DNA of 34,390 nt from an uncultured Chloroflexia bacterium (lineage in GTDB: Bacteria; Chloroflexota; Limnocylindria; Limnocylindrales; CSP1-4). Below, in pieces: positions 7,738 through 34,390 of this stretch. Where the stretch lies: positions 1-34,390 of the forward strand of contig CAVYBU010000024.1 of the NCBI GenBank assembly GCA_963766735.1. Reading direction: 5' to 3'. The position numbers and the translations under genes are program-made. How positions within the stretch are numbered: position 1 is the first letter of the stretch; every line of letters begins with the position of its first letter. The notes under the pieces were generated by a model. It was not told where the DNA came from, searched no databases, and worked only from the letters and a program-made list of their open reading frames with translations.

Positions 7738-7738
7738 C

Positions 7739-11199: not shown

Positions 11200-11249
11200 G
11201 GTCGGAGCTCCGGTACGGGTCCTCGGGATCTGTGCGGGCGGTCGGCGGT

Positions 11250-12411: not shown

Positions 12412-12415
12412 GTCC

Positions 12416-12600
12416 ATGGAGTAGAAGCGGGCGACCACCCGCCCCCAGGAGAACCCGGCAACACCGGCTCCAAGGGACGGCGCCGTCGCCGATGCGTTCG
12501 CAGACCAGCTGGTGACGGAACTGCCCCGCCTGGTCCGACTCGCCATCCGCCTGGTTCGCGACGCGGGCCGGGCGCAGGGATGTGCCCAGGAGACGTCGGT
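12416..12600 (+). pseudogene. ECF sigma factor remnant (region 2 fragment)
   Basis: ATG GAG TAG (nonsense at codon 3), then in frame DAFADQLVTELPRLVRLAIRLVRDAGRAQGCAQET, resembling ECF region 2.1-2.2; similarity then ends. Confidence 0.6.
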
Positions 12601-12647
12601 CGGCAGCGCGGCCGTGCTTCGGCGTCGGCAGGGTCCGGTGAAGACCC

Positions 12648-13115: not shown

Positions 13116-13137
13116 GGTGTGCTCCAGTCCGGCGTGG

Positions 13138-13539: not shown

Positions 13540-13557
13540 CGTGGTGGTGGCCGGGCC

Positions 13558-14535
13558 TCAGATCGTGACGACGACCTTCCCTCGTGCGTGCCCCGCCTCG
13601 ATGTGGCGGATGGCCGCCGCCGCCTCGGGCAGTGGATAGGTCGCGTCGATGACCGGCCGGAGCGTCCCCTCCTCGACCATTGACGTGAGGACCTCGAGAT
13701 CCTGCCGGTTCGGGACGGAGAAGGGCCGGCGCAGGCTGTGCTTCACGAAGGGGTTCAGCACGACCGGCCGGATCAGCCGGACCAGCAGCCGCAGGCCACT
13801 CGCGCCCGTGCCACTCATGAGGACGAGGGTGCCCTCGGGCGCCAGGACACGTCGAGTGTCCGCGAGGGAGTGGTTCTCCATGTTGTCGAGGATCACGTCG
13901 TAGCGTTCCGTGCCCCGGGTGAAGTCCTCCCGGGTGTAGTCGATGACGTGGTGCGCGCCAAGCGAGCGGACCAGCTCCACGTTGTTCGGGCCGCACACGC
14001 CGGTGACCTCGGCGCCGAGGTGCCGCGCGATCTGCACCGCGTAGGTGCCCACGCCGCCCGACGCGCCGTTGATGAGGACCTTCTGACCGGCCTGCAGCCG
14101 GCCCGCATCGCGGAGGCCCTGGAGCGCCGCGGACGCCGACGTCGGGATGGCCGCGGCCTGCTCGAAGCTCATGCCGGACGGCTTGAGGACGAGCGTGTCC
14201 TCGGCGGCCCGCGCGTACTCGGCGCAGGCGCCCGACGACGGCCAGCTGCAGATGCCGAAGACCTCGTCGCCGGGTGCGAACCGGGTCACGGCGCTGCCGG
14301 TCGCCTCGACCGTCCCGGCGATGTCGGACCCGGGCACGCCGAACTTGGGCCCGCGCAGGCCGCTCGTGAACCGGACCGGGAACGGCGAGCCCCGGACGCC
14401 GAACACGTCACCGATGTGGAGCCCCGCGGCGTGGACGCGCACGAGCACCTCCCGGTCGCCGATCCCGGGCTTGTCGATCTCCCGGCTGACGAGCACCTCC
14501 GGCCCGCCATACCGCTCCTGGACGATTGCCTGCAC
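13558..14535 (-). CDS. NAD(P)-dependent alcohol dehydrogenase / quinone oxidoreductase (MDR family)
   Basis: GPEVL, PGSDIAGTV, INGASGGVGTYAVQIA, HARGKVVV; GAGGAG RBS. Confidence 0.93.
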   Translation of the reverse strand: MQAIVQERYGGPEVLVSREIDKPGIGDREVLVRVHAAGLHIGDVFGVRGSPFPVRFTSGLRGPKFGVPGSDIAGTVEATGSAVTRFAPGDEVFGICSWPSSGACAEYARAAEDTLVLKPSGMSFEQAAAIPTSASAALQGLRDAGRLQAGQKVLINGASGGVGTYAVQIARHLGAEVTGVCGPNNVELVRSLGAHHVIDYTREDFTRGTERYDVILDNMENHSLADTRRVLAPEGTLVLMSGTGASGLRLLVRLIRPVVLNPFVKHSLRRPFSVPNRQDLEVLTSMVEEGTLRPVIDATYPLPEAAAAIRHIEAGHARGKVVVTI

Positions 14536-20736: not shown

Positions 20737-21324
20737 GTGAACGATCACGAGGCCACCTTCGTCGAGCAGCTTGGCCAGCACCTCTCTGCCCGGGGTATGC
20801 AGCGGATGGCGGGGCGCGCATGGGCGTGGCTGCTGATCTGCGATCCGCCGGAGCAGACGGCCGAGCAGCTCGCGGAGGCGCTGCACGCGAGCCGCGGGGC
20901 GATCAGCGGTGCGATGCGTGTCCTCACCAGTGCGGGCTTCGTCCACCGTGGCCGGCGGCGCGGTGACAGGCGCGAGTTCTTCAGCGCCCCGCCCGGTGCC
21001 ATTCGCCGCCTGGTCGCCAACGGCGGCACGGTCATGGCGCACGGGCGCGAGATCGCGGACGAAGGCCTGGCGCTCCTCGCCGGCCGCCCGCCCGAGGACC
21101 GGGCCAGGCTCCTCGAGTTCCGTGACCTCTACGCGTACTACGAGCGCGAGTGGCCCATCCTCGTCGCTCGCTATCTCGCGGACCGGACGGAGCCCAATGG
21201 TGGTGTGGTACCGGGCACCGACCGGGCACAGCCCCCGCCCGGGTCGGCCGTTGAGGAGCCACCGATACCGCCCAGCAGGACGCATCAGGTCGCCAGCGCG
21301 CCGGAAGGGAACCGATCCATATGA
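20737..21324 (+). CDS. MarR/GbsR-family winged-helix regulator
   Basis: GMQRMAGRAWAWLLICDPPEQTAEQLAEALHASRGAISGAMRVL...RRGDRREFF. Confidence 0.88.
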   Translation: MNDHEATFVEQLGQHLSARGMQRMAGRAWAWLLICDPPEQTAEQLAEALHASRGAISGAMRVLTSAGFVHRGRRRGDRREFFSAPPGAIRRLVANGGTVMAHGREIADEGLALLAGRPPEDRARLLEFRDLYAYYEREWPILVARYLADRTEPNGGVVPGTDRAQPPPGSAVEEPPIPPSRTHQVASAPEGNRSI

Positions 21325-22235
21325 CCGCAATCATCGAGGCCGAGCGCCTCACCAAGAGCTACGGGAGCCACCGCGGCATCATCGACGTGGATCTCGAGAT
21401 CCAGGAAGGCGAGGTCTTCGGCTTCCTGGGCCCAACGGTGCCGGCAAGACGACGACCATCCGCACCTTCCTCGACCTGATCCGGCCGACGAGCGGCGTCG
21501 CCCGGGTGTTCGGCATCGAATCGTCGGTCGACCCGGTGGCGATCCACCGCCGGGTGGGCTACATCCCCGGCGAGTTCGCGCTCTACGACCGCCTCACCGG
21601 CGGCCAGACCATCCAGTACTTCGCGAACCTGCGGGGCGGGGTCGACCCGCTCTACCAGCAGGACCTCATCGCACGGATGGATCTCGATCCGTCACGCCGG
21701 TTCAAGGAGTACTCGAAGGGCAACAAGCAGAAGGTCGGCATCGTCATCGCGCTCCAGCACCGCCCGGACCTGCTCGTGCTCGACGAGCCGACGTCGGGTC
21801 TCGATCCCCTCGTGCAGCAGTCGTTCTTCGGCCTCGTGCAGGAGGCGAAGGCGGAGGGCCGGACGGTCTTCCTCTCGAGCCACATCCTGGGCGAGGTCGA
21901 GAAGACGTGTGCCCGGGTCGCGATCATCCGCGAGGGCCGCATCGTGAAGACGGACACGGTCGAGGCCCTGCGCGACCTCGCCCATCACCAGGTGGAGCTG
22001 CGCTTCACCGACACGGTGCCGGTCGCGGCCTTCGAGAGCCTGCCCGGCGTGAGCGACGTGGTCGCCGATGACCATGTCCTGCGGCTTCGCGTCACCGGCG
22101 CGATCACCCCGGTCGTCCGGGCCGCCGCGCAGTACGACCTGCTCGACTTCGTCAGCCGGGAGCCGAGCCTCGAGGAGACGTTCCTCGCGCAGTACGGCCG
22201 GCAGGCCGTCGGGGAGAGCCAGCAATGTCAGCTAG
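21321..22235 (+). CDS. ABC exporter ATP-binding protein (apparent frameshifts near 21431 and near its 3' end)
   Basis: MTAIIEAERLTKSYG...GEVFGFL/GPNGAGKTT (one C missing in a C run), YSKGNKQK, LDEPTSGLDP, SSH. The end at TAG 22233-22235 is inferred. Confidence 0.88.
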
Positions 22236-23909
22236 TGCCGGCGCGCCGCCGCTGGCGGCAGCCCGTACCCAGATCCACACGCCTGAGCCGGATCTACGGT
22301 CTCGGCAGCATCTACGGCAAGACGATGCGCGACTCGCGCCTCGCCTTCATCATCGCCACCGGCTTCCTGCAGCGGCATGGCGCTCGTCATGGGCGCGGCC
22401 ATCTCGACGGTGTTCCCAACGCCGGCGGCCCGCCTCGAGGTGGACGCGCTCATCGGGAGCATGCCGGCGTCCATGGTCAACCTGTTCGGCAGGCCGGTCG
22501 GATCTCGGCACGCTCGGCGGCTACATGACGTTCAAGTACGGCGCCATCTTCGCCCTGGGCGTCGCGCTGTGGTCGATCATGGCCCTCTCCGGCACGCTCG
22601 CGGGCGAGGCACGTCGCGGCAGCCTCGACCTGGTCGCCACCACGCCGTTCGGCAAGCGCCGCATCGCCCTCGAGAAGCTGGCGGCCCACCTGACGGTGGT
22701 GTGGCTGGCGCTGGCGATCTTCGCCGTCGTCACCACGCTCAGCTCGACGATCTTCGGGGATGCCGCCCTCGGCGACACCATCCCGCTCCAGTCCTCCGTC
22801 GCCTTCGCCCTGTGGGTCGGGTTCCTCGCCATGTTCTTCGGCGGGATCGCGTTCGCGCTGTCGCCCATCCTCGGCCGCGCCGGCTCCGCGGGAGTCGCCG
22901 GCATCGCCATGGTCTTCCTGTGGGTCGCCGCCGGCATGGAGATCGGCGGACCGCTCGTGGTCCTGAGCCCGTTCGCCTGGACGGCGGACCACATCGGGCT
23001 CGTGGGCATGTACGACTGGCCGGCGCTGGCGCTGGTCGGCATCGTCGGCGTCGTGTTCCTGGCCATCGGTATCGAGCTGTTCGTGCGCCGCGATCTCGGG
23101 GTCACGGCCGGACTCTCGCTGCCCGGCCTGCCGGCGGGCATCCTCGGGCGTCCGCGGACCCATCAGCCGGGCGTTCGGCGACCAGCTGCCGCGGGCGACC
23201 TCGTGGGGCATCGGTCTCGGGCTCGCCGGCGCGCTGCTCGCGTCCCTGGTCGGGCCGATGGCAGACCAGATCCGGTCCAGCCCGGACATCCTGGGGGTCT
23301 TCCAGACGATCTTCCCGGACTTCGACCTCGCCTCGGCCGGCGGCTTCCTCCAGCTGTACGTGGCGCTGCTGTACATCGCGGCCGGGTTTGCCGCGGCAAC
23401 GTTCGTCTCGAAGTGGGCATCGGACGAGACCGATGGGCGCCTCGAGCTCGTCCTCACCTCACCGGCGAGCCGGGCCCGGTGGGCGCTCGCCGGCGGCATC
23501 GCCGCGCTGTTCGCGATCGTGGTGATGAGCGTGCTGTTCGCGGGCGGCATCGGGCTCGGCGCGGCGTCGAGCAACGTCAGCGCCGAGTGAGGCCATGCTC
23601 GGTTCCGCCGCGCTCGGCCTCTATGCCGCGGCCGTCGTCGGGATCGGGGTCGCGGTCGGCGGGCTGTGGCGGACGTCACTCGCTGCGGAGATCGCCGCGC
23701 TGTTCGTGGTGGCCACCTACCTCGTCGACCTCCTCGCGCCGGCGCTCGGCCTCCCGGACTGGGTGCATCAGCTGGCCCTGACCGCACACCTGGGCCAGCC
23801 GATGGCCGGCAGCTGGGACCTGGTCGGGGTTGGCGCCTGCCTCGTGATCGCCGTCGGCGGCGTGCTGCTGGGGGCGTGGGGCATGAAGCGGCGCGACGTC
23901 ACCGGGTAG
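22225..23909 (+). CDS. ABC-2 type permease with two domains (about five apparent +1 frameshifts)
   Basis: Segments in successive frames: SIYGKTMRD / MALVMGAA / LAGEARRGSLDLV / ASDETDGRLELVL / MKRRDVTG*. Paralogous to the intact 24894-26552. Confidence 0.8.
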
Positions 23910-23988
23910 GCGAGGGGTCGGCCCCGGGTGTCTCCCGGGCCGGCCCAAGCGCCCCGCAACACGGGGTCGCGAATCGACAAGGAGCCGC

Positions 23989-24897
23989 ATGACCGACCAG
24001 ATCGCCATTCACATCGAGGGCCTGACCAAGCACTACGGCAGCGTCCACGCCCTGGTGGACCTGGACCTCGACGTTCGCGCCGGCGAGGTGTTCGGCTTCC
24101 TCGGCCCCAACGGCGCCGGCAAGACGACGACGATCCGGACCCTGCTCGACGAGATCCGCCCAACGGCAGGCCGGGCCACGATCAAGGGCCTCGACACCCA
24201 CGAGAAGGTGGTGGAGATCCGGCGCCACGTCGGCTACGTGCCCAGCGACCTGGCGATGTATCCGAGCCTCACCGGGCGCGACACGCTGACCTACTTCGCG
24301 AACCTCCGGGGGGGCGTCGACTGGGCGTATGTCGATGTCCTGGCCGAGCGGCTCGACGCCGACCTCTCGCGGAAGGTCGGTGACCTGTCCTCCGGCAACC
24401 GGCAGAAGGTCGGCGTGATCCAGGCGTTCATGAACCGGCCCGACGTCCTGATCATGGACGAGCCCAGCGCCGGCCTGGACCCGCTCATCCAGCGCGAGTT
24501 CCAGGCGATGATGCGAGAGGTCGCCGCCGAGGGTCGGACGGTGTTCCTCTCCAGCCACACCCTCTCGGAGGTTCAGCGCGTCGCGGACCGGGTCGGGATC
24601 ATCCGCAGCGGCCGCCTCGAGGCGGTCGAGTCGGTTGCCGACCTGCGCTCGAAGTCGATCCGACGGGTCGAGTTCGAGTTCACCGAGCCGGCGGACGCCT
24701 CTGTGTTCGCATCCCTGCCCGGCGTCCGGAGCGTGGCGGTCGAGGACCACCGGGTCGTCCTGTCCTACGACGGCCGGATGGACGTCCTCCTCAAGACCGC
24801 GACCGCGCGCTATGACGTCGTGGACATCACGTCCCAGCCGGCCGATCTCGAGGAGATCTTCCTCACCTACTACAGCGACGAGGCGGTGGCCGGGTGA
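23989..24897 (+). CDS. ABC exporter ATP-binding protein
   Basis: GPNGAGKTT, LSSGNRQK, MDEPSAGLDP, SSH; AAGGAG RBS. Confidence 0.95.
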   Translation: MTDQIAIHIEGLTKHYGSVHALVDLDLDVRAGEVFGFLGPNGAGKTTTIRTLLDEIRPTAGRATIKGLDTHEKVVEIRRHVGYVPSDLAMYPSLTGRDTLTYFANLRGGVDWAYVDVLAERLDADLSRKVGDLSSGNRQKVGVIQAFMNRPDVLIMDEPSAGLDPLIQREFQAMMREVAAEGRTVFLSSHTLSEVQRVADRVGIIRSGRLEAVESVADLRSKSIRRVEFEFTEPADASVFASLPGVRSVAVEDHRVVLSYDGRMDVLLKTATARYDVVDITSQPADLEEIFLTYYSDEAVAG

Positions 24898-26552
24898 TGC
24901 TGGCCGGCGTCCTGACCAAGACAGTCCGCGACCGCTGGGTGGCGTTCGTCGTGGGGTCGGTCGCGATCGGCCTGTTCACCGTCTTCGGCATGGCCGTCTA
25001 CAGCGGGATCGATCTCTCCTTCTACGCCGGGCTGCCGGAACCACTCCTGGGGCTGATGGGCATCTCGGATGTGACCGACCTCAGCGGGCTCTCGTATGGG
25101 GCCATCTTCAGCTTCATGGGCGCGATGACCCTGGCCGGGCTCGCCGTCTGGGTGGGCGCCGGCGTTGTGGCCGGCGAGGAGCGCAACGGAACCATCAGCC
25201 TGCTGCTCGGCAACCCGAAGAGCCGGACGCATGTGCTTCTCGCCAGCGCGGGAGCCCTGGTCCTCCTCACCGCGCTGGGCGCGCTGATCATGCTCGCCGG
25301 CGGCCTTCTCAGCCCGGTGATCCTCGATGTCGACATCGGGGGCAGGGATATCGGGGCGCTGACGTTCCACCTGTTCGCCAACGCGCTGTTCTACGGCTTC
25401 ATCGCGCTCGCAATCGGAGCGTGGACGGGCAACGGCGGGCTCGCGACGGGTGTCGCCGCTGCCGTGATGGTCGTCTCCTACATCGCCGTCGGCCTGCTGC
25501 CGCTGTTCAAGGGGCTCGAGGACGTCGCCCGGGTGTTCCCCTGGTACTACTTCGACGGCAGCGACCCCCAGTTCAACGGCATCGACTGGGGCCACATCGG
25601 CGTCCTGGCCGCCGGTTCCGGGATCCTCGCCGGGCTGGCGGTGATCGGCTGGAACCGCCGCGATCTCAGGGGTCGGAGCACGGGGCGGACGATGGTCGAC
25701 CGGCTCCGGAGCAGCCCGATCACCCGCAGGATCGTGGACCGGCTCGCTGGCTCCGCGGCCGTCTCCCACGTCTGGACCAGGACCATCTCGGAGCACCAGG
25801 CGCTCCTCGTGGTCACCGCCTACATCATGGCCCTCGTGGGCATCTTCTACGGTCCGCTCTACTCGTTGCTCCCGGCTGAGGTCCTGGGCATGGCCGACCA
25901 GCTTCCCAAGGAGCTGCTGGCCCTCGTGGGCAATGCCGACATGAGCACGCCCGAGGGCTTCTACACGATCGAGGGCTTCGGCCTTGTCGTGCCGATCGCG
26001 ATGATCCTCGTCACCGTCACGGTCGGATCCCGCGCCCTGGCCGGCGAGGAGGGGAACCGCACGATGGGCCTCCTCCTCGCGAACCCCGTCAAGCGCTCGA
26101 GCGTCGTCGTGGAGAAGACCGTGGCGCTGGTCATCATCGCCGCGGTCCTCGGGCTCGTCGCATTCGGTGCGACGGTCCTGGGGTCCTATCTCGGTGGACT
26201 CGGCATGGATGCGGGCCACATCGCGGCGATCTGCCTCCTGGCCGTGCTGCTCGGGCTGGTCGTCGGCGGGCTGGCGCTCCTGCTGAGCGCCGCCACGGGC
26301 CGGGTGCGGTGGGCCGTGGAGGGCTCGATGGGGTTCGCGCTGATCGCCTGGCTGTTCAACGCCTACCTGCCGCTCAACGACAGCGTTGCCCGCTTCGCGG
26401 AGCTGTCCCCGTTCTACTACTACCTGGGCAATGACCCACTCGTCAACGGGATCCACTGGGGTCATGCAGCGCTGCTGGCCGCGCTGTTCCTGACGACGGC
26501 GGCTCTGTCCGTGGTCCTCTTCGAGCGCCGGGACCTGCGCCAGACGAGCTAG
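24894..26552 (+). CDS. ABC-2 type permease with two domains
   Basis: Duplicated unit AGEERNGTISLLLGNP...NRRDL and AGEEGNRTMGLLLANP...ERRDL; about 12 hydrophobic segments. Confidence 0.92.
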   Translation: MMLAGVLTKTVRDRWVAFVVGSVAIGLFTVFGMAVYSGIDLSFYAGLPEPLLGLMGISDVTDLSGLSYGAIFSFMGAMTLAGLAVWVGAGVVAGEERNGTISLLLGNPKSRTHVLLASAGALVLLTALGALIMLAGGLLSPVILDVDIGGRDIGALTFHLFANALFYGFIALAIGAWTGNGGLATGVAAAVMVVSYIAVGLLPLFKGLEDVARVFPWYYFDGSDPQFNGIDWGHIGVLAAGSGILAGLAVIGWNRRDLRGRSTGRTMVDRLRSSPITRRIVDRLAGSAAVSHVWTRTISEHQALLVVTAYIMALVGIFYGPLYSLLPAEVLGMADQLPKELLALVGNADMSTPEGFYTIEGFGLVVPIAMILVTVTVGSRALAGEEGNRTMGLLLANPVKRSSVVVEKTVALVIIAAVLGLVAFGATVLGSYLGGLGMDAGHIAAICLLAVLLGLVVGGLALLLSAATGRVRWAVEGSMGFALIAWLFNAYLPLNDSVARFAELSPFYYYLGNDPLVNGIHWGHAALLAALFLTTAALSVVLFERRDLRQTS

Positions 26553-26665
26553 GTTCGGGGCGACGCGTTCGGCAGCGGGGCGTCGTCCTGCCGTGGCCCG
26601 GCCGACGGCCCGTCAGACCGCGCGGCGGCGCAGCTCGTGGACGGCGTCGTGCAGCTCCGCGGTGC

Positions 26666-28183
26666 TCAGGTCGGTCGTCGCGCGAACCAGCTCGTGCGGT
26701 CGCCCGCCCGCGAACGCGACTCCGGCTCCAGATCCGGACGCGTGGGAGTACGTGCGGAGGTCCGCTGGTCGTGGTCGTCCTCGTGCACGTCGGGCGCCCA
26801 CGGGACGCCGAGCGGGAACAGCTCCGCGAACATCTCCACGAGCTCGGGATCGAACTGGACGCCGGCCTGGCGGCGCAGCTCCGCGATCGCCTCGTCGTGG
26901 GTGATGGCGACACGGTATGGACGCCCGCCGATCATCGCCTCGTAGGCGTCCACGATGGACACGATCCGGGCTCCGACCGGGATCTCCGTGCCGGCCAGCC
27001 CGTGCGGGTAGCCGCGCCCGTCGAACCACTCGTGGTGGTGGAGCACGATCGTGGCAGCGTCACGCAGGGCGCCCGCCTGCTCCAGCACCACCTGGCCGAT
27101 CTTGGGATGCTCGGTGACGACCCGCCACTCGGACGCGGCGAGGTCACCGGGCTTGGCCAGGATCTCGTCCGGGATCGCCAGCTTGCCGAGGTCATGGAGC
27201 AGGCTTGCGGTCCGGATGCGGTCGAGCTCGCCTTCGGGCAGGTCGATCGAGCGGGCGAGCGCCACGGAGGCCTCCGCGATCAGGACGGAAGGCCTGCCTG
27301 CCCAGGACGCCCGGCCGACGAGCGTCCGGAGGAGCGCGTCCTGGGCCGCCGCCATGGCCGCGCGGCCCACGTCCACGGCCTGCGAGCGGGCCTCCGCGCC
27401 GATCGGAGAACGTCGGACGGTGTCCTCGTCGCCGGTCTCCCGGAACACGAACACCTGGTTTCGCCCGAGCGCCTTGGCGGAGTAGAGCGCGGCGTCCGCA
27501 TCGCGGACCAGGGCGTCCGCCTCGAGGACACTGCCCAGCCCGCCGGCCACGCCGGCGGACAGCGTGATCGTCGCGACCTCGCCATCCGGCAGGCGGATCT
27601 CGCTGCCCGCGACGATCCGGCGCAGCTTCTCGGCCAGCGACGCGGCCGCGTCGACATCCGTCTCCGGCAACACGACCAGGAACTCCTCGCCGCCGTACCG
27701 GCCGGCATGGTCCACGGCCCGGACGTTGACGCTCAGGAGCTGGGCCACGTGCCGCAGGACGACATCGCCCGCGGCATGGCCGTGCGTGTCGTTCAGCCGC
27801 TTGAATTGGTCGAGGTCCACGAGGATCACTGACAGAGGGCGGTAGTAGCGCGTCGCACGGGCGATCTCGTCGTCCACGCGGCTCAGCACTGCCTGGCGGT
27901 TGGGGATGCCGGTGAGCTGATCCACCGTGGCCAGCCGCCAGGTGTCGGCGACCCGGTCCGCGAGGCCACGGAAGGCGGCGCGCAGGCGCGGGTCCCTGAT
28001 CCGTCCTGCGTCGAGCGCGACCAGGGCGCCCTCGTCCGCGGCATCCGTGAGACGCTCTGCGAGCGTGGCGAGCCGGCGGTCCTGGCGGCGCACGACGAAC
28101 GCGGAGAAGCCCGCTGTCCCGGCGAGCGCGCCGATCAGCGCGATCGCGACGGCAAGGGCCAGCGCGACGGTCTGGGCATCCAA
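26666..28183 (-). CDS. Membrane-anchored diguanylate cyclase with HD-GYP domain
   Basis: N-terminal TM, DQLTG, DLDQFKRLND, RAVD I-site, RYGGEEF, LHDLGK, HHEWFDGRGYP. The true C-terminus may shift frame and end at 26613. Confidence 0.92.
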   Translation of the reverse strand: MDAQTVALALAVAIALIGALAGTAGFSAFVVRRQDRRLATLAERLTDAADEGALVALDAGRIRDPRLRAAFRGLADRVADTWRLATVDQLTGIPNRQAVLSRVDDEIARATRYYRPLSVILVDLDQFKRLNDTHGHAAGDVVLRHVAQLLSVNVRAVDHAGRYGGEEFLVVLPETDVDAAASLAEKLRRIVAGSEIRLPDGEVATITLSAGVAGGLGSVLEADALVRDADAALYSAKALGRNQVFVFRETGDEDTVRRSPIGAEARSQAVDVGRAAMAAAQDALLRTLVGRASWAGRPSVLIAEASVALARSIDLPEGELDRIRTASLLHDLGKLAIPDEILAKPGDLAASEWRVVTEHPKIGQVVLEQAGALRDAATIVLHHHEWFDGRGYPHGLAGTEIPVGARIVSIVDAYEAMIGGRPYRVAITHDEAIAELRRQAGVQFDPELVEMFAELFPLGVPWAPDVHEDDHDQRTSARTPTRPDLEPESRSRAGDRTSWFARRPT

Positions 28184-28379
28184 AGGGCTGTCACCGCCTG
28201 TTGTTCGGGGCGCGGCACGGACCAGGTGGCCGAATGCGCTCTCTGGAGGCTACGCTGCGGGACGGGGACAACCATGGGGTGATGGTCCCGGTGGCGGACG
28301 CACCGCACACCCGCCCACCAGGTCGTGGCCCGTAAGTACCACGGCAACCCGCCAATGCGGGAGCGCGCGATCCGTCCGG

Positions 28380-29223
28380 TCAGATGGCCTCCCGTCCGTC
28401 CCGGTTCACCCGGCCGCGCGCGAGGTCTCGTCCGCCGTCGTCACGCAGCCGCCACGCCCACCCGTCGTCGGCCCCGGCACCCTCCGGCCACGCGGTGCCC
28501 GTCAGCGCAGCACCGGGCGCCGCGGCCGCCACGTACTCGAGCCTGACCCGGCGCGGAACCGCGGCGAGAATCCGGCGGCCGGGCTCGCCCGCGGCATGCA
28601 GCGCCTCCTCGAGGTAGTCCACGTAGGCGGCGTTGTTGACGTGGCCCATCGGGTCGATGTCCTGCGGACGGACCGTGGACCGGTGGGCGGACGCATCGGG
28701 AGGCGCCGGAACCAGGGAGACGCGGCTCGGTTCGAACGTGCCGGGTTGGACGGCAAACCGGGCCGCGAACTCGGGTGGCACGCGTCCGGGCATGCCCCGG
28801 TGGTCCGTCATCACCCAGTCCGTGTGGCCCCAGAACGCCAGGGTGCCGTCGCCCAGGCGCGCCTCGGTGCGGCGCCGCGCCCACACGCGGCGGATCCCCG
28901 TGACCGCGGTGGAGATCGCCAGGGTCGTGCCCAGGGGGATGGTCGCGAGGATCACCAGGTCCGCCGCACGCACCACCCAGGCGAGTCCGCGCCCCGCATA
29001 CCAGGCACGGTCAAAGCCCAGCCGCTCGGAGTGGACCCAGGCGATGTCCTGCGCGTAGCGGAGCAGGGCGGAGGTTCGCACGATGCCGTCGGGGCCGCAC
29101 TCGTCGAACCGGGTCCGATAGCGGATCGTCAGGCCTGCGACGGGGGCCGGCGCGGCGTCGGAGGGCGCGGCCTGCTTGCTCTCGGGATCCTTGATCCTCG
29201 CGCTCGGCGGGATCGCCGCTCAT
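28380..29223 (-). CDS. Acyl-ACP thioesterase (double hot-dog), apparent frameshift near the 5' end
   Basis: YRTRFDECGPDG, LLRYAQDIA, DIDPMGHVNNAAY. The ATG at 29223 overlaps the upstream TGA (ATGA) but is one base out of frame with the domain. Confidence 0.85.
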
Positions 29224-29906
29224 GCCGGCTTGCGTCCAGCCAACCGGTCCAGCCCCTCCAGGGCGATCAGCTTCAGGCTGTCGACGGCGACCGGGCCGCG
29301 CTCCCGGACCAGCCGTACCTCGCACGAGCGTCGGGCATCGAAGACGACCAGCCCGGCCAGCAGCCGCACGCCCTCGTCGGCAGCGCCCCGGCGCGCGTCG
29401 TCGAGCTGGTGCAGGACATCCGCCTTGATTCCGCGCGCGCCCCACTTGCAGTCCCACACCTCGCCGGCGCCATCCCGCTCCACCGTGACGTCGTAGGGGT
29501 GGATCTCCGCCGGTCGCCCGTCGAACAGGATGCGGCGCTCACGCCGGACCGGGCCGGTCCGGGCGGCGAGCAGGAGCTCGGTGAGCGCCTCCACGATGGC
29601 TCCGCGGAACTGGCTGCGCGTCTGGTCCCCGCGGTCCGCCACGGCCAGCGACACGGCCAGGATCGCATCGGAGCGATCCCTGGCAGGATCTCCGGGGAGC
29701 GGGGCGGCCGGACCGAAGAGGGTCGGAAACATCGTCCGCCACGAGACCGGATCCAGGGACTCGCCGTTCATCACGGCCCGCGCCAGGAGACGCTGGACAG
29801 TCGTGGCTTCGGCCAGCAACCCGGCCGCTCGCACCACGAGCGGGTCCGCCTGGATGTGCGCGTAGACGACTGCCCTCCCGTCTGGCCGGGCCTCCATGTA
29901 CCGCAT
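29220..29906 (-). CDS. Hypothetical protein with PD-(D/E)xK nuclease-like motifs
   Basis: RGAIVE...HPYDVTV...EVWDCK...DVLHQL; ATG at 29906 overlaps the upstream TGA. Confidence 0.7.
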   Translation of the reverse strand: MRYMEARPDGRAVVYAHIQADPLVVRAAGLLAEATTVQRLLARAVMNGESLDPVSWRTMFPTLFGPAAPLPGDPARDRSDAILAVSLAVADRGDQTRSQFRGAIVEALTELLLAARTGPVRRERRILFDGRPAEIHPYDVTVERDGAGEVWDCKWGARGIKADVLHQLDDARRGAADEGVRLLAGLVVFDARRSCEVRLVRERGPVAVDSLKLIALEGLDRLAGRKPA

Positions 29907-30205
29907 CAGGAGGGTTCTCCCAGGGCAGCGAGAGCCACCTGCGGAAGCGTGGACAACCAGTCGATGGCGCGGTGCGGATCCGTGACGCGACCGGCCTCGT
30001 CGACCAGCGCGGTCAGGGCCTCGTCGGTGCCCGGCGGCGCAGGCTCGCTGCCGCGCGCATCGGCGACGGCGCGCAGGCGGGCACGCCAGACCGTGCCCAA
30101 GTCGGTGACGTACTGGTACTCGTCCTCGATGGGCTCCGCGGTCGCACACAGGACGGTGAACCCGGCGAGGGCGCGGTCGATGAGATCGGCGACTGTTGCA
30201 GGCAT
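29906..30205 (-). CDS. Hypothetical alpha-helical protein (99 aa), probably leaderless
   Basis: MPATVADLIDRAL...DPHRAIDWLSTLPQ; TACGCT -10 (30213-30218) 7 nt before the ATG; coupled to the next gene. Confidence 0.7.
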   Translation of the reverse strand: MPATVADLIDRALAGFTVLCATAEPIEDEYQYVTDLGTVWRARLRAVADARGSEPAPPGTDEALTALVDEAGRVTDPHRAIDWLSTLPQVALAALGEPS

Positions 30206-30275
30206 GCCCCGCAGCGTACGACGCGCAGCCGGATCGCGGAGCGCCCCGTGGGACCAACTGCCCGGCGGACGAGGA

Positions 30276-30536
30276 TCAGGCTGGGTCGCCGCTCCGCGAG
30301 AGGACCGTCGTCGCGGCCGCGCGCGGGCTGGCCGCCAGGCGCTGCTTCGCTTCCTGCTCCAGGCGCCCCAGCTTGCGACGGCCGTGCTCATCCCAGCGCG
30401 TCGAGTAGACCCGCAGGGCCTTGCGCCGGATCTCGTATGCGGCCTGCCGCTCGCCGGCGCGCTCGAGGCGTGCGACGCCGTCCAGTACGGCCCGGTAGAG
30501 CCCGGGGAGAACCTCGGCAGGGTTCTGATCATCCAT
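30276..30536 (-). CDS. Hypothetical helical protein (86 aa)
   Basis: MDDQNPAEVLPGLYRAVLDGVARLE...YSTRWD; amphipathic, with high-GC codon usage. Confidence 0.65.
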   Translation of the reverse strand: MDDQNPAEVLPGLYRAVLDGVARLERAGERQAAYEIRRKALRVYSTRWDEHGRRKLGRLEQEAKQRLAASPRAAATTVLSRSGDPA

Positions 30537-30693
30537 CCAGAAGATGGTGGCCGCGGCGGGGACCGACGGGTATGGGTGGGATGTCCCGGGCGGACCCGCC
30601 GGGAGTCCGGGGTGCGTTGCCCGAGCGCACCGCGGTGCCATCCGCGGGCCTAGGATCCAGGTCTCGCGACCTGCGGGCGCTCCGCGGCATCGC

Positions 30694-31020
30694 TCAGTCG
30701 CCCCGGTGAGCCCCGCTCTCGATCCGGAAGCCACGACCGATCCCCCTGGCGGGCTCCCAGCGAACGATCACCCGGTCCACGTATCCTGCCGGAGGCCCGG
30801 CCTCCAGCCGCGCGACCAGCGCATCAAGGTCCGTGCGTCGTCCCTCGGCCACAACCCGGACGCTGCCGTCCGCCTCGTTGGCCACGAACCCGTCGAGCCC
30901 GAGCGCGCCCGCCTCCCGAAGGGCGAACACCCGATACCCGACGCCCTGGACTCGCCCGCGGACGCTCGCATCCAGGCGGGAGCGCCCGCCGGCGCCATCG
31001 GGCGCGCCAGAGCCGGTCAT
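30694..31020 (-). CDS. acyP: Acylphosphatase
   Basis: VRGRVQGVGYR, GFVANEADGSVRVVAEG, GPP. Confidence 0.95.
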   Translation of the reverse strand: MTGSGAPDGAGGRSRLDASVRGRVQGVGYRVFALREAGALGLDGFVANEADGSVRVVAEGRRTDLDALVARLEAGPPAGYVDRVIVRWEPARGIGRGFRIESGAHRGD

Positions 31021-32240
31021 GCCGCGTGGTGCCGGCGCGGCCAGCGAACCAGGAGCACGTCGAGGACCAGCTCCGGGCTGACGTTGCCCGCGACCAGCTC
31101 ATCCGCCCGCACCAGGCGGGCGAGCATCGCCGCGGCCGCGTCCGGCGGCAGGTCCTGCGCCGCGGCCTCGATCTCCTCGATCAGCGCGATGTCCCGGATC
31201 GAGCCGGGCGCGCCGCGCTGCGCGAGCGCGAGGTCGTGTGCGATGGCGCGCCAGACATCCAGGAGCAGCAGGAGCGCCCTGCGGCGGGCGGCTGCCGGCG
31301 TCTTCCTGACAGGACCCTCGTCGGCGAGCTCCTCCGGCACGTCGTCGGCACCGTCACCACTGCCAGCGGCCGTGCCCTGTGCGGGCACGGCTGGCGCCAT
31401 GCCGGGGACGCCGCGTCTCCGGGCTTCCTCGGGCGGCACCACGGCCGGCACCACGGCCGGCACGAGCAGCGCGTCGAGCTCCATCGCGCGGGCGATCAGC
31501 GGCCTTGCAGCAGCCAGGCGGCGGGACGGACCCTGCGCCAGCAGGTCAAGGAGCGTGCGAGTCAGCTCCCCACGGATGACCTCGGCACCATCCGCGGCGG
31601 CATACGCGACGGCCAGGCCCGGGCGGCCGCCGGTGAGGCGGGCGAGTCGGGCAGCGGTCGGGGCATCGGCCAGGCCCCGCTCCACCAGCAATCGCTCGAT
31701 CTCCCGTACCCCGAGGACCCCGAGGCGGATCCGGGCACACCGGGACCGGATCGTCGGGAGCAGCAGCTCCTCGTCGTCGGCACAGAGGATCACCGTCGTC
31801 CCGCTCAGTGGCTCCTCGAGCGTCTTGAGCAGGGCGGACTGGGCATCCTCGTTCGCACGGTGGGCATCACGGATGATCGCCACCCGCCCGCCGCCTTCCA
31901 CGGGCAGCAACGAGAGCTCGGTCACGAGGTCCCGGACGCCACGCTGCTTCGCGCCGGGTCCGCCGATGACGACCTGGGCGCCGATCCCCTCGGGTCCCAG
32001 CCGGTGGAGGTCGGGGTGGTTGCCGTGCTCGACCATCCGGCACGTGCGGCACGTACGGCACGGTCGGCCTGCACCGGTCGCGCCTGTGCACAGCAAGCCG
32101 GCTGCCAGGTCCAGGGCGAGGGACACCTTGCCCACGGACGCAGGTCCGCTGATGAGAAGCGCGTGTGGGACGCGCGAGGCCAGCATCGCGTGGACGGCCG
32201 TCACCGCGGCCGGGTGGCCGACGGTCAGGAAGCCGTCCAC
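31017..32240 (-). CDS. holB: DNA polymerase III subunit delta'
   Basis: HALLISGPASVGK, zinc site C...CRTCRTC, HPD, AQSALLKTLEEP, LPTIRSRC. Confidence 0.92.
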   Translation of the reverse strand: MDGFLTVGHPAAVTAVHAMLASRVPHALLISGPASVGKVSLALDLAAGLLCTGATGAGRPCRTCRTCRMVEHGNHPDLHRLGPEGIGAQVVIGGPGAKQRGVRDLVTELSLLPVEGGGRVAIIRDAHRANEDAQSALLKTLEEPLSGTTVILCADDEELLLPTIRSRCARIRLGVLGVREIERLLVERGLADAPTAARLARLTGGRPGLAVAYAAADGAEVIRGELTRTLLDLLAQGPSRRLAAARPLIARAMELDALLVPAVVPAVVPPEEARRRGVPGMAPAVPAQGTAAGSGDGADDVPEELADEGPVRKTPAAARRRALLLLLDVWRAIAHDLALAQRGAPGSIRDIALIEEIEAAAQDLPPDAAAAMLARLVRADELVAGNVSPELVLDVLLVRWPRRHHAA

Positions 32241-32266
32241 GTCGCTGGCGCTGGTTCTGCCCGGAC

Positions 32267-34390
32267 TCAGTCCTCGGCGGGCTGAGCGGCCGGCTTCCTG
32301 GTCGTCCGGCGCTTGGGGGCCGCGGTCCCGGCGGCAGGAGCCGTCTGGGCCGGAGCCTCAACTGCCGTGGCCGGAGCCTCGGCTGCCGCGGCCGGCTTGC
32401 GCGTGGTCCGGCGCTTGGGGGCCGGCTTGGCGACCGGCTCGGCCGGGGCCTCGGCGACCGGGGCCGGAGCCTCGGCTGCCGCGGCCGGCTTCCTGGTCGT
32501 CCGGCGCTTGGGGGCCGCGGTCCCGGCGGCAGGAGCCGTCTGGGCCGGAGCCTCAACTGCCGTGGCCGGAGCCTCGGCTGCCGCGGCCGGCTTGCGCGTG
32601 GTCCGGCGCTTGGGGGCCGGCTTGGCGACCGGCTCGGCCGGGGCCTCGGCGACCGGGGCCGGAGCCTCGGCTGCCGCGGCCGGCTTCCTGGTCGTCCGGC
32701 GCTTGGGGGCCGCGGTCCCGGCGGCAGGAGCCGTCTGGGCTGGAGCCTCAACTGGCCGGGCACGCTGCAGCTGCGCGCGAAGCATCTCTTCGAGCTCCGG
32801 CGGAACCTCGCTCCACTCCGCGCCGCCCGTGCGCGGCGCACGATCGATGCGATCCTGGCGCTCCGGCCGCGGGCCGCGCGGGGACTGCTGCCCACCGCGA
32901 CCGCCCCGGCTGCCCTGGCTGCCCTGGCTGCCGCCTCCACCCTGACCGCCACTGCGACCGGGGGCAGGTTCGGCGAAGCGGTTCGTGCCGCCGCCGCGAC
33001 CGCCACCGTAGCGCTCGCGCTCGATGGCCGACGTGTAGGCGCTGCGGCCACCACCACCGCGACCGCTGCGGCCACCACCGCCGCCCCGGCCACCCTGGCC
33101 GCGGCGCTGCTCGGTGAGCAGGTACTCCGGGATCGCCGGCTCCTCGAAGTCTTCCTCATCGTCGGGGAGCGGCGCCAGTTTGGCGGCCGGCAGTGCGACC
33201 GGGGTCCCGGGCTGGCGGTCCCACACGGAACCGAACGGCGTGGACCGCGGGGAACGCGGCGGGGCCGAGAGTGCCTCCAGGTCGTCGAACGGTGTCGGCA
33301 GGTCGCCGGACGGGGTTCGGGACCGACCGCCACGTGCCGGCCGCTCCGGGGGCGCGGTGGCCGCGACGGCCTCGCCCTGCTCGACGTCATCGGCCTCTTC
33401 GACCTGGGCGTCCGCGACGCCCTCGATCTCCTGGCCTTCGACATCCGCGACCGCGTCGACACCGCCGGCCTCGACCGGCTCACCGCCCTCGACCGGCTGG
33501 TCGTCGCGACGGCCCCGGCCACGGCCACGGCCACCACGGCGACGGCGGCGGCGGCGGCCATCGCCCTCACCCTCGCCTTCGCCCTGGAGATCCTCGCCCG
33601 GGACGACCTCACCCGCGGCAATCTCGAGACCTTCCTCGAGCTCCGGAGCGTCCTCGACGGGCGCAGCGGCGGCCCGGGACAGCTTCTCGCCGGGCAAGGC
33701 CACGAGCCCGACGGTCGAGATGCCGATCGGGGCGACAACCGCCTCGCGACCCGGCTCACGACCGGCTCGCGACCGGAATCACGACCGCGGTCCCGCCCTG
33801 AGGACGAGCGCCCGCCGCGCGAGCCGCTGGCATAGCCGCCCTCTCGATCGGACCGGTCGCGACCGCGACCGCGACCGCGACCGCGACCCGAGCCTTCCGA
33901 CAGCTTGTCCGGGACCTCGGTCATCGACAGGTCCTCGTCGTCGCCTGCGACGCGGCGCCCGGAGACCGTGGATCCCCTGTCAACCTTGGCGATGTGGATG
34001 ATGTCGGTGAACAGGTCCGCGACCTCGATCAGGTCGGAGGACGTGTTGCCGCGGAAGCTGACCACCTCGACGCGGACGCCCATCTCCTGGACGGCGCGGA
34101 TGGCTGACGCGAAGTCCCCGTCGCCCGACACGATGACGGCGACGTCCAGGTTGCGCGCGGTCTTCATCAGGTCCACGACGAGCTCGATGTCGAGGTTCGC
34201 CTTGACCTTGCCGTCGCCGTACTTCCGGATGTCCTTGCTGACGACCTTGTACTGGTGCCGCGCGAGGAACTGGTGGAAGTTGCGCTGGTTCTCATTGTCC
34301 GGGTCCAGCCCGGTGTAGGCATACGCGCGGACGAAGTCTCGTCCGGCGGTGACCGACTTCAGCAGGGTGACATAGTCGATATCCACGCCG
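32267..34390 (-). CDS. NYN (LabA/DUF88, PIN-like) domain protein with long disordered C-terminal tail; 5' end outside the window; frameshift near 33762
   Basis: RAYAY, KANLDIELVVD, SGDGDF, EMGVRVEV, SSDLIEVAD. Restoring one G in the REPG-REPG repeat (gagccggtcgt vs gagccgggtcgc) joins the 478-aa ORF 32267-33703. Confidence 0.87.
32286..32754. repeat. 195-bp near-perfect tandem repeat (about 2.4 copies) encoding five APKRRTTRKPAA motifs
   Basis: ggagcctcaac starts at 32352, 32547 and 32742 (period 195 bp = 65 aa). Confidence 0.93.

What the first reader, a model, noticed from the sequence alone, without database searches (positions are those of the whole stretch)
32267..34390. NYN ribonuclease with an RNase E-like disordered scaffold: candidate alternative degradosome/condensate organiser
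Seen: after repairing one indel, a NYN domain with catalytic-type acids (LDIELVVD, SGDGDF) is followed by over 500 aa of low-complexity sequence. It alternates RG/RGG-rich and acidic blocks (e.g. EGEGEGDGRRRRRRRGGRGRGRG) and contains short hydrophobic islands: LVALPGEKLS, TPFGSVWD, DFEEPAIPEYLL, SAYTSAIERERY, WSEVPPELEEMLRAQL. Established: this layout of catalytic domain plus charge-patterned tail with microdomains is how RNase E scaffolds degradosomes and BR-bodies; typical LabA/DUF88 proteins lack such tails. Inference: a NYN nuclease has convergently become the RNA-decay scaffold in this lineage, encoded in core context directly upstream of holB.
Basis: partly seen in the sequence, partly recalled or inferred. 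Interest (0 to 1): 0.8.

Follow-up and report, generated by a model that had tools for sequence, protein, structure and literature searches.

The report
NYN nuclease with long disordered tail
A core gene of one group of uncultured Chloroflexota bacteria joins a predicted RNA-cutting NYN domain to a floppy, charge-striped tail of about 570 residues studded with conserved short motifs, a layout otherwise known from the RNA-decay organiser RNase E, but no binding partner has been shown.

Summary
The window's two minus-strand ORFs are one gene broken by a 1-nt deletion between 33766 and 33767. A 97.8%-identical contig of the same assembly (C3) carries the intact 728-aa ORF. Covering contigs from 4 of 4 public metagenome runs carry frame-restoring indels. 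Residues 4-151 are a NYN domain (Pfam E 3.8e-34; nearest folds 2qip and MARF1 NYN) with all acidic active-site residues invariant. Residues 161-728 are disordered and charge-patterned. The gene is single-copy and was found in every sampled genome of three families of Limnocylindria (40 of 40). It sits in a fixed GNAT-NYN-holB-acylphosphatase order. The strong reading, a NYN-based degradosome or condensate organiser, is untested. RNase E/G is missing from the whole phylum sample (1 of 301), so its absence is not specific. RNase Y, RNase J and PNPase are all present. No partner contact could be shown. The same clade alone has a PNPase with an inserted DEDDh exonuclease and lacks a PSP1/RicT-like gene. 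Verdict: a real and unusual new variant of a NYN ribonuclease; the RNase E-like hub role is plausible but unproven.

The parts
32267..34390 (-). Whole gene as held in the window. It is 5'-truncated by the contig end and frameshifted. The intact allele is G000:C3 (L002:68-2254:-), 728 aa.
34000..34389 (-). NYN (PF01936) domain, residues 22-151 of 4-151. Acidic residues D88, D94, D111 and D113 lie in the window. D10 and N13 lie beyond the contig end.
33904..33963 (-). Invariant post-NYN motif SGRRVxxDxEDLSMTEVPDK (residues 164-183). It is disordered in the model of residues 1-190.
33853..33894 (-). RG-dipeptide repeat (residues 187-200), encoded by a CGCGAC x5.2 repeat.
33766..33767 (-). Site of the 1-nt deletion private to this contig, inside the 12/23-nt tandem repeat at 33738-33788.
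33677..33706 (-). Island LVALPGEKLS (residues 250-259). P254 G255 E256 L258 are invariant in 116 sequences.
33506..33556 (-). Arginine block RRRRRRRGGRGRGRGRR (residues 300-316), flanked by acidic stretches. It was found in 21 of 22 loci of f1, f2 and f3.
33269..33301 (-). LPTPFDDLEAL (residues 385-395). It is conserved in only part of f1. FDDL-like acidic motifs also occur in f2 and f3.
33206..33241 (-). Island TPFGSVWDxQxG (residues 405-416).
33110..33151 (-). Acidic island DFEEPAIPEYLLTE (residues 435-448). A short helix is predicted at 444-451.
33005..33043 (-). Island SAYTSAIERERYG (residues 471-483), predicted helix 471-481.
32768..32815 (-). Island WSEVPPELEEMLRAQL (residues 547-562), predicted helix 552-565. 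This is the best-scored part of the tail (pLDDT 82 for residues 551-560).
32286..32754 (-). C-terminal basic repeats, five copies of APKRRTTRKPAA, encoded by a 195-bp tandem repeat x2.4 at 99% identity.
31017..32240 (-). holB (DNA polymerase III delta', PF13177), 26 nt downstream. No terminator-like site lies between the two genes.
30694..31020 (-). Acylphosphatase (PF00708), overlapping the holB stop by 4 nt. It is the last gene of the conserved order.

Best explanation
The locus encodes one housekeeping protein of 728 aa. It has an N-terminal NYN (LabA/COG1432-type, PIN-like) metal-dependent endoribonuclease domain joined to an intrinsically disordered tail of about 570 aa. I read the arginine block, the RG repeats and the C-terminal APKRRTTRK repeats as nucleic-acid (most likely RNA) binding segments that capture and concentrate substrate. 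I read the short conserved hydrophobic/acidic islands, three of them predicted helices, as docking motifs for a small number of protein partners. On this reading the protein works in RNA processing or decay alongside RNase Y, RNase J and PNPase, which the genome keeps. It is organised like the C-terminal half of RNase E without being related to it. Shown here: one gene, the NYN fold, intact acidic residues, disorder and charge patterning, motif conservation, core single-copy status, and fixed gene order. Inferred: RNase activity, RNA binding by the tail, and partner docking. The break in the window copy is a private 1-nt deletion in a slippage-prone repeat (assembly error or rare allele), not the natural state of the gene.
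For: One gene: an intact 728-aa ORF lies on C3 of the same assembly. The two copies differ by one missing base plus 8 substitutions, 5 of them synonymous. Covering contigs of 4 of 4 runs carry frame-restoring indels. NYN: Pfam 118.7 bits against a cut-off of 24.2; 2qip matches by sequence at E 1.2e-15; the AF2 model of residues 1-190 has pLDDT 81.4 and pTM 0.77. Foldseek gives 2qip at E 7.3e-15 (TM 0.83) and MARF1 NYN 5yaa/6fdl at E 2e-7 to 2e-6. D10 N13 D88 D94 D111 D113 are invariant in 27 NYN domains of the phylum. NYN domains with shown RNase activity include B. fragilis CRISPR-associated NYN, a Mn-dependent ssRNase (abstract read), and MARF1 (search listing only). Tail: disordered apart from helices 444-451, 471-481 and 552-565; composition and charge blocks as computed. 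Island conservation is seen in 24 and in 116 sequences. The island profile finds 208 representatives among 1.84 billion proteins. Of 25 odd-looking hits examined, 5 carry NYN, 4 carry holB/acylphosphatase stretches and 16 carry nothing, so none has another catalytic domain. Core gene: an ortholog was found in f1 17/17, f2 3/3 (genomes of 1.1-1.2 Mb) and f3 20/20. It is the only PF01936 gene in its genome. The order GNAT-NYN-holB-acyP is conserved in f1 and f3, and NYN-holB in f2. Precedent: an arginine run (RRRRRRSSA) in cyanobacterial RNase E is a protein-docking site (passages read, PMC3964918).
Against: There is no direct evidence of nuclease activity or RNA binding. For LabA-type NYN proteins the 2017 PIN-superfamily survey states that none had been studied as a nuclease (PMC5499597, passages read). 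The genome has a full RNase Y, RNase J and PNPase, so no obvious vacancy exists. FGSxWD, RERYG and WSEVP occur only in f1 (12/12) and not in f2 (0/2) or f3 (0/8), so any partner set is not fixed across the clade. The conserved neighbours are a replication gene, an acetyltransferase and an acylphosphatase, not RNA-metabolism genes. No expression data could be obtained; all listed runs are DNA.
Confidence: 0.55

Rival explanations
1. The protein is the organising hub of an RNase E-independent degradosome and/or a BR-body-like condensate. Its islands recruit PNPase, RNase J, a DEAD-box helicase or glycolytic enzymes, and its charge-patterned tail drives RNA-dependent phase separation.
For: The anatomy matches RNase E C-terminal domains: catalytic domain, then arginine-rich segments, then conserved short motifs in a long disordered region. 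For comparison, only the abstracts shown in the search listings of PMC4435900 and PMC11964227 were seen. RNase E/G was not found in the genome. The invariant R-run resembles the PNPase-docking RRRRRRSSA of cyanobacterial RNase E. The same clade, and only it, has a remodelled PNPase with an inserted DEDDh exonuclease domain. The gene is retained in streamlined genomes of 1.1-1.2 Mb.
Against: Absence of RNase E/G is phylum-wide (over cut-off in 1 of 301), so it does not single out this clade. RNase Y, the usual organiser in RNase E-less bacteria, is complete in 61 of 61 class genomes. None of the islands occurs in any other protein of the genome (for the motifs whose patterns were well posed). 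Most islands are family-specific. The co-distribution with the PNPase insert is one clade, hence probably one event each.
Confidence: 0.2
2. It is a ribosome- or stable-RNA-directed nuclease (rRNA/tRNA maturation or ribosome quality control). The basic and RG-rich tail anchors it to ribosomes or rRNA, as basic extensions of ribosome-associated factors do.
For: Bacterial NYN genes have been linked by gene neighbourhood to tRNA/rRNA processing (PMC5499597). The NYN domain is almost invariant over about 160 residues in 116 sequences, as expected for an enzyme acting on a conserved substrate. The gene is core even in reduced genomes. The upstream neighbour is a small GNAT acetyltransferase, the family that includes ribosomal-protein acetylases (recalled, not tested).
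Against: No rRNA, tRNA or ribosomal-protein gene lies beside it in any locus examined. The acidic blocks and hydrophobic islands are not explained by rRNA binding alone.
Confidence: 0.12
3. It is a DNA-side function tied to replication: a PIN-like flap or primer nuclease, or a nucleoid-associated protein, co-expressed with the clamp-loader subunit holB. The K/R repeats would bind DNA.
For: The operon-like arrangement with holB is fixed across f1, f2 and f3, with a 26-nt gap and no terminator-like site. The f2 tails end in AKPAAKPAAKP-type repeats like DNA-binding histone-like tails (the likeness is recalled).
Against: The genome already has three FEN-type 5'-3' exonuclease domains over the Pfam cut-off. 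NYN domains characterised so far cut RNA. RG/RGG blocks are typical RNA binders (recalled). holB also neighbours RNA-related genes elsewhere: in the sister families it is followed by a PSP1/RicT-like gene.
Confidence: 0.06
4. It is a non-catalytic regulator. Like cyanobacterial LabA, whose biochemical activity is unknown, the NYN domain serves as a binding module and the tail as a regulatory or sequestering region.
For: No LabA/COG1432 member had been shown to be a nuclease as of the 2017 survey. 2qip is annotated as of unknown function.
Against: All acidic residues of the NYN site are invariant across 27 divergent domains, which argues for retained catalysis.
Confidence: 0.05
5. The two ORFs are truly separate genes, or the locus is a decaying pseudogene.
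For: The window sequence itself is frameshifted. The tail ORF has a GTG at 33703.
Against: An intact allele lies in the same assembly. Covering contigs of 4 of 4 runs are frame-restoring. Hundreds of full-length homologs of 600-740 aa exist. Substitutions between the two copies are 5 synonymous to 3 non-synonymous. The deletion lies in a short tandem repeat.
Confidence: 0.02

Closest known systems
RNase E C-terminal scaffold (E. coli, Caulobacter, cyanobacteria)
   Same: An endoribonuclease domain is followed by a long disordered region with arginine-rich segments, alternating charge blocks and short conserved motifs. An arginine run is a known PNPase site in cyanobacterial RNase E.
   Different: The catalytic domains are unrelated: NYN/PIN-like here, no PF10150. 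No membrane-targeting helix was recognised. No partner is shown. Oligomeric state is unknown.
LabA / VPA0982-type NYN proteins (NYN.COG1432; PDB 2qip)
   Same: Same domain family and fold, with the same acidic residues.
   Different: Those are proteins of about 160-250 aa, or carry OST-HTH domains. This one adds 570 disordered residues, and no OST-HTH was detected. The NYN domain is under far stronger constraint here.
MARF1 (eukaryotic NYN RNase with RRM and LOTUS domains)
   Same: A NYN nuclease is coupled to RNA-binding accessory regions. It is the second-best structural match.
   Different: Its accessory regions are folded domains, it is eukaryotic, and identity is only 16-17%.
RNase Y of Firmicutes with its RicT/Y-complex
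   Same: It is the endonuclease-centred network in RNase E-less bacteria. RicT forms a stable complex with RNase Y (abstract in the listing, PMC10470536). A PSP1/RicT-like gene sits beside holB in the sister families that lack the NYN-tail gene.
   Different: RNase Y is itself present here. The NYN-tail protein shares no domain with RNase Y or RicT.
CRISPR-associated NYN ribonuclease of Bacteroides fragilis
   Same: It is a prokaryotic NYN domain with shown Mn-dependent, sequence-nonspecific ssRNA cleavage (abstract). The PADLOC NYN model matches residues 6-148.
   Different: It is a defence-island accessory protein without a disordered tail. The present gene is core and lies in a housekeeping context.

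Membership tests
NYN domain, PF01936 / COG1432 (LabA-like) | Match to the family profile above the curated threshold | tested here: met
   118.7 bits against a cut-off of 24.2, residues 4-151 covering profile positions 1-144 of 145.
NYN domain, PF01936 / COG1432 (LabA-like) | PIN-like alpha/beta fold as in 2qip | tested here: met
   The AF2 model has pLDDT 81.4, with residues 1-157 folded. Foldseek gives 2qip at E 7.3e-15, TM 0.83 and 30% identity, and MARF1 NYN at TM 0.72-0.76.
NYN domain, PF01936 / COG1432 (LabA-like) | Four conserved acidic residues predicted to bind one metal ion (PMC5499597) | tested here: met
   D10, D88, D111 and D113 (plus D94 and N13) are invariant in 27 domains and aligned to the same motifs in 2qip. 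The mapping to the metal site follows the paper's statement, not a solved complex.
NYN domain, PF01936 / COG1432 (LabA-like) | Ribonuclease activity | not testable with these tools
   This needs an enzyme assay.
NYN-OST-HTH (LOTUS) architecture common in bacteria | OST-HTH domain C-terminal to NYN | tested here: not met
   Pfam reports only NYN at E up to 0.1.
RNase E/G family | RNase_E_G catalytic domain (PF10150) | tested here: not met
   There is no match in the protein or anywhere in the genome. It is not a member; any likeness is in layout only.
Degradosome-type scaffold (functional class, RNase E CTD-like) | Long intrinsically disordered region attached to an endoribonuclease | tested here: met
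   Residues 161-728 have pLDDT under 50 except for three short helices. The composition is 11.8% hydrophobic.
Degradosome-type scaffold (functional class, RNase E CTD-like) | Arginine-rich RNA-binding segments | tested here: inconclusive
   The sequences are present and invariant (R300-R316, RG repeat, KRRTTRK x5). RNA binding itself was not tested.
Degradosome-type scaffold (functional class, RNase E CTD-like) | Conserved short linear motifs (microdomains) | tested here: met
   Invariant residues occur in five islands over 116 sequences. The islands are family-specific beyond f1.
Degradosome-type scaffold (functional class, RNase E CTD-like) | Physical recruitment of PNPase, helicase, RNase J or enolase | not testable with these tools
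   This needs pull-downs or equivalent. No usable computational verdict was obtained.
Condensate (BR-body-like) scaffold | Alternating charge blocks in the disordered region | tested here: met
   There are about ten + / - blocks of 15-55 residues, with net charge +4 over 568 residues.
Condensate (BR-body-like) scaffold | RNA-dependent phase separation | not testable with these tools
   This needs purified protein or imaging.

The most novel reading that the evidence does not exclude
One clade of Limnocylindria rebuilt its RNA-decay machinery on a single branch. It gained a NYN endonuclease whose RNase E-like disordered tail serves as hub and condensate scaffold. It gained a PNPase with a built-in DEDDh exonuclease, and it dispensed with the RNase Y adaptor RicT/PSP1. 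The NYN-tail protein would then be the first degradosome organiser built on a PIN-like nuclease, a convergent counterpart of RNase E.
Probability: 0.15. Interest if true: 0.85.

Novelty: new variant of a known kind. Interest (0 to 1): 0.62.

Why it matters
Long disordered, motif-studded scaffolds are a hallmark of RNase E and are central to current ideas on bacterial degradosomes and RNA condensates. Finding the same layout on an unrelated NYN nuclease would show that the architecture evolves convergently. This one is conserved as a core gene even in 1.1-Mb genomes of a lineage sampled from sediments and waters. It would also give the large LabA/COG1432 family its first concrete, testable cellular role. 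The co-occurring PNPase-exonuclease fusion suggests that the whole decay apparatus of this clade is unusual. The protein offers defined reagents for experiment: a 160-aa domain with four acidic residues and five short peptides.

Tried and rejected
1. Co-fold of PNPase (alignment A4, 861 aa) with tail residues 375-455 (A3): no answer, score 0.00 against a mark of 0.32. This is not evidence either way. Only one of the many island/partner pairs could be tried.
2. The full-length AF2 model is poor (mean pLDDT 46.5, pTM 0.29). It therefore cannot say whether islands dock on the NYN domain.
3. ESM Atlas on tail residues 235-570: the best score was 0.87, to unnamed clusters. The nearest named clusters were PF12300 RhlB at 0.81 and PF12111 PNPase_C at 0.79. 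All are below the level at which shuffled sequences also score.
4. NCBIfam: nothing near a cut-off. PADLOC: only the generic NYN model.
5. Search for the islands in other proteins of the genome: none were found. My pattern for the IPEYL island was mis-written and missed even its own gene, so that motif is not covered.
6. I rejected absence of RNase E/G as support, because the absence is phylum-wide.
7. I rejected the idea that NYN replaces a missing flap nuclease. Three FEN domains are present.
8. The idea that NYN-tail replaces PSP1/RicT: the two are exactly complementary in the class sample. However, PSP1 is also missing from 140 of 301 phylum genomes, which have no NYN-tail. I keep it as a lead only.
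9. My first reading 'class-wide' was wrong. Families f69 and f70 of the same class lack the ortholog (0/19, 0/1). They have a 22%-identical NYN paralog with a differently built C-terminal part that matches no Pfam family and was not further examined.
11. The literature search was badly posed (any term) and told nothing about Limnocylindria. Searches listed no paper on a bacterial NYN protein with a disordered scaffold. One search listed none on a PNPase with an inserted DEDD domain. These are searches of the held library only, and supplements were not seen.
Their small shares are no evidence of habitat.
Full report
**What is in the sequence**

The finding lies on the minus strand. In the window it reads as two frames. 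One is open from the contig end (34389) through a NYN domain and RG-rich sequence. The other is a 478-aa ORF (32267..33703) that holds the low-complexity tail.

The window is an entire 34,390-bp contig (C24) of a 35-contig, 3.62-Mb assembly that is 93.85% complete and 4.22% contaminated. It is a variant copy of sequence held twice. Bases 1-14512 match the end of contig C9 at 97.2%. Bases 21141-34390 match the start of C3 at 97.8%.

On C3 the same gene is an uninterrupted 728-aa ORF (L002:68-2254:-). The two copies differ by one missing base in the window, between 33767 and 33766, and by 8 substitutions (5 synonymous, 3 not). Five of those substitutions lie within 35 nt of the deletion. The site falls in a 12/23-nt tandem repeat at 33738-33788.

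I laid contigs of four public metagenome runs on 33300-34390. Every contig covering the place carries a frame-restoring difference. X1 has +1 (depth 2.7 of 2.7). X2 has +1 (6.72 of 6.72). X3 has +1 (4.49 of 4.49). X4 has -11 (21.5 of 21.5), which together with the window's -1 is an in-frame -12. These are assembled contigs from other samples, not raw reads of the source. They show that the gene is normally whole. They do not show whether the window's deletion is an error or a rare allele. The window also lacks the first 21 codons and part of codon 22.

**The catalytic domain**

Residues 4-151 match Pfam NYN (PF01936) at E 3.8e-34 and 118.7 bits, over profile positions 1-144 of 145. The only solved relative by sequence is 2qip, a Vibrio protein of unknown function (E 1.2e-15).

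I built an alignment of 27 NYN domains from across the phylum. With it, AlphaFold2 folds residues 1-157 confidently (mean pLDDT 81.4 over residues 1-190, pTM 0.77) and leaves 158-190 disordered. Foldseek finds 2qip (E 7.3e-15, TM 0.83), then the NYN domains of mouse and human MARF1 (E 2e-7 to 2e-6, TM 0.72-0.76).

D10, N13, D88, D94, D111 and D113 are invariant in those 27 domains. The PIN-superfamily survey describes NYN domains as binding one metal through four conserved acidic residues. It also says that, as of 2017, no NYN.COG1432 member had been studied as a nuclease (PMC5499597, passages read). A CRISPR-associated bacterial NYN protein has since been shown to be a Mn-dependent ssRNase (abstract read). 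For MARF1 I saw only the search listing.

**The tail**

Residues 161-728 are 17.4% A, 14.6% G, 13.0% R, 11.1% P and 9.9% E. Only 11.8% are hydrophobic, against 37.5% in the NYN domain. Net charge is +4, and basic and acidic blocks alternate about ten times.

The full-length model is poor (pLDDT 46.5) and predicts no structure in the tail apart from short helices at 444-451, 471-481 and 552-565. The last 160 residues are five APKRRTTRK-type repeats, encoded by a 195-bp tandem repeat of 2.4 copies at 99% identity.

The following residues are invariant in 116 homologs that are 57-91% identical overall (the 24-sequence alignment is shown):
- P254 G255 E256 L258
- R301-R306, G307 G308, R309 G310 R311 G312 R313
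- F407 G408 W411 Q414 G416
- E438 P439 P442 E443 Y444 L445 E448
- Y473 A476 R479 E480 R481 G483
- W547 V550 P551 E553 Q561
- the post-NYN stretch S164 G165 R166 R167 V168 ... D174 L175 S176 M177 T178 E179 V180 P181 K183

The linkers between these islands vary freely in length and sequence.

**Who has it**

A search of 5.8 billion clustered proteins returned 2235 hits at E <= 0.001 among the 8000 candidates scored, within lengths of 400-1274 aa. The named hits are called 'LabA-like NYN domain-containing protein', with organism names Candidatus Limnocylindrales or Chloroflexota (lineage).

In a sample of 300 other Chloroflexota genomes, strong orthologs (65-88% identity over the NYN part, open frames of 386-785 aa) occurred in families f1 (15/15), f2 (2/2) and f3 (15/15). 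Elsewhere there were only NYN domains of 30-51% identity. These had short tails, or the NYN domain sat at the C-terminal end of another protein.

A denser sample of the class corrected my first impression of a class-wide gene. The counts were f1 17/17, f2 3/3 and f3 20/20, but f69 0/19 and f70 0/1 at E <= 1e-20. Families f69 and f70 have a different NYN protein. It is 22% identical, and its C-terminal part is built differently and matches no Pfam family.

The gene is the only PF01936 gene in its genome. It is kept in the 1.1-1.2-Mb genomes of f2.

The tail changes between families (22 loci):

| Motif | f1 | f2 | f3 |
|---|---|---|---|
| R-block | 12/12 | 2/2 | 7/8 |
| PEYL | 12/12 | 2/2 | 0/8 |
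| FGSxWD, RERYG, WSEVP | 12/12 | 0/2 | 0/8 |
| C-terminal GIWxRF | 0/12 | 0/2 | 7/8 |

I also built a profile of the f1 islands (157 positions) and ran it against 1.84 billion representative proteins. It found 208 at E <= 0.001. I picked 25 hits for odd length or odd match position. Five carry NYN. Four carry stretches of holB, one of them acylphosphatase as well, and look like run-on gene calls. Sixteen carry no domain and look like fragments. None has another catalytic domain.

**Context**

Directly downstream lie holB (PF13177) after a 26-nt gap, then an acylphosphatase overlapping holB by 4 nt. Upstream on C3 is a small GNAT acetyltransferase. No terminator-like or sigma-70-like site was found across L002 1-3000.

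The order GNAT-NYN-holB is seen in the f1 loci wherever the 1.5-kb flanks reach. NYN-holB is seen in f2, and GNAT-NYN-holB-acyP in four f3 loci. It is not seen beside the nearest outgroup NYN genes.

**The decay machinery around it**

RNase E/G (PF10150) was not found in the genome. But it is over the cut-off in only 1 of 301 genomes of the phylum sample. Its absence therefore says nothing particular about this clade.

The genome has RNase J (598 bits), a full-length RNase Y (668 bits, profile positions 4-514) and PNPase. RNase Y is present in 61 of 61 class genomes, 60 of them over the cut-off.

Three FEN-type nuclease domains are present, so a missing flap nuclease need not be invoked.

**Two things found on the way**

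First, PNPase here is 861 aa and carries a PF00929 (RNase T/DEDD) exonuclease domain at residues 255-407, between its two PH domains (E 3.6e-28). D258, E260, D341, H394 and D399 are invariant in 27 orthologs.
- In the class sample the insert-bearing form (one contiguous match over residues 1-861) occurs in f1 17/17, f2 3/3 and f3 19/20.
- The insert-less form (two pieces, ORFs of about 740-770 aa) occurs in f69 19/19 and f70 1/1.
- In the phylum sample, the listed genomes outside the clade almost all give two pieces.
- The distribution thus equals that of the NYN-tail gene.

Second, in f69 and f70, holB is followed by a PSP1/RicT-like gene that ends in an arginine run.
- PF04468 is found in f69 19/19 and f70 1/1, but in f1 0/17, f2 0/3 and f3 0/20.
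- RicT forms a stable complex with RNase Y in B. subtilis (abstract in the listing, PMC10470536).
- Both patterns concern one clade, hence probably one event each.
- PSP1 is also missing from 140 of the 301 phylum genomes, which have no NYN-tail.
- I therefore treat both as leads, not as support.
- The phylum tallies include five genomes flagged unpublished (G272, G145, G173, G227, G038).

**How it most likely works**

The best-supported reading is a housekeeping NYN endoribonuclease whose tail supplies multivalent RNA binding (R-block, RG repeats, basic repeats) and a few docking motifs. It would work beside RNase Y, RNase J and PNPase. The layout is that of RNase E's C-terminal half.

One element has a direct precedent as a protein site. 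The RRRRRRSSA nonapeptide of cyanobacterial RNase E binds PNPase (PMC3964918, passages read).

The stronger claim is that this protein is the organiser of a degradosome or condensate. It is compatible with everything seen, but it rests on analogy. I put it at about 0.2.

**Comparison and novelty**

The protein is a member of the NYN/LabA family by profile, fold and active-site residues. It is not a member of the RNase E/G family. It lacks the OST-HTH domain that commonly accompanies bacterial NYN domains.

Public records call it only 'LabA-like NYN domain-containing protein'. Two full-text searches listed no paper on a bacterial NYN protein with a disordered scaffold. One search listed none on a PNPase with an inserted DEDD domain. 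These cover the held library only, and supplements were closed.

I class it as a new variant of a known kind. It has real potential interest for the field of bacterial RNA decay, pending enzyme, RNA-binding and partner assays.

Noticed in passing
G000:C7:167321-169903 (-) (L046:1474-4059:-): PNPase of 861 aa with a PF00929 RNase_T/DEDDh exonuclease domain inserted at residues 255-407 between the two PH domains. The DEDDh residues are invariant in 27 orthologs. The insert-bearing form occurs in f1 17/17, f2 3/3 and f3 19/20. The insert-less form occurs in f69 19/19 and f70 1/1, and nearly all listed genomes outside the clade in the phylum sample also give two pieces. This is the same distribution as the NYN-tail gene. 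One search listed no paper on it.
   Followed up: partly
window 1-14512 and 21141-34390: The whole window contig (C24) is a second, 97-98% identical copy of the C9 end and the C3 start of the same assembly. It is a strain variant kept beside the main contigs, and it ends inside the NYN gene. In the same-genus genome G079 the gene is likewise split over two contig ends.
   Followed up: yes
L077-L081 (e.g. G305:C64:48670-50126): In the sister families f69 and f70, holB is preceded by a ~376-aa ORF that looked by eye like a glycosyltransferase (not run through Pfam) and followed by a PSP1/RicT-like gene whose product ends in an arginine run. PF04468 is exactly complementary to the NYN-tail gene in the class sample, but it is also missing from 140 of 301 phylum genomes.
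   Followed up: partly
L092:1043-2647:- (G305:C127): Families f69 and f70 carry a different NYN protein of 534 aa. Its NYN domain is only 22% identical to this one. It has a C-terminal part that does not look low-complexity and matches no Pfam family, and a short RG-rich end.
   Followed up: partly
proteins P0215, P0175, P0126, P0243: Public gene calls fuse the tail islands to stretches of holB, and in P0215 to acylphosphatase as well. They are most likely run-on ORFs in high-GC DNA or frameshifted contigs, not real fusions. They do repeat the tail-holB-acyP order in other metagenomes.
   Followed up: no
window 26669-28249 (-): An ORF of 527 aa with GGDEF (PF00990) followed by an HD_5 / HD domain, i.e. 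a cyclic-di-GMP synthase/hydrolase-type signalling protein.
   Followed up: no
window 202-1071 (-), 6889-7407 (-), 1537-2076 (+): Two hemerythrin-domain ORFs and an ECF-type sigma factor lie in the part of the window that duplicates contig C9.
   Followed up: no
window 32286-32754: The 195-bp tandem repeat encoding the basic C-terminal repeats is 99% identical between copies. Homologs carry different numbers and spellings of the repeat, which suggests recent expansion or contraction.
   Followed up: no
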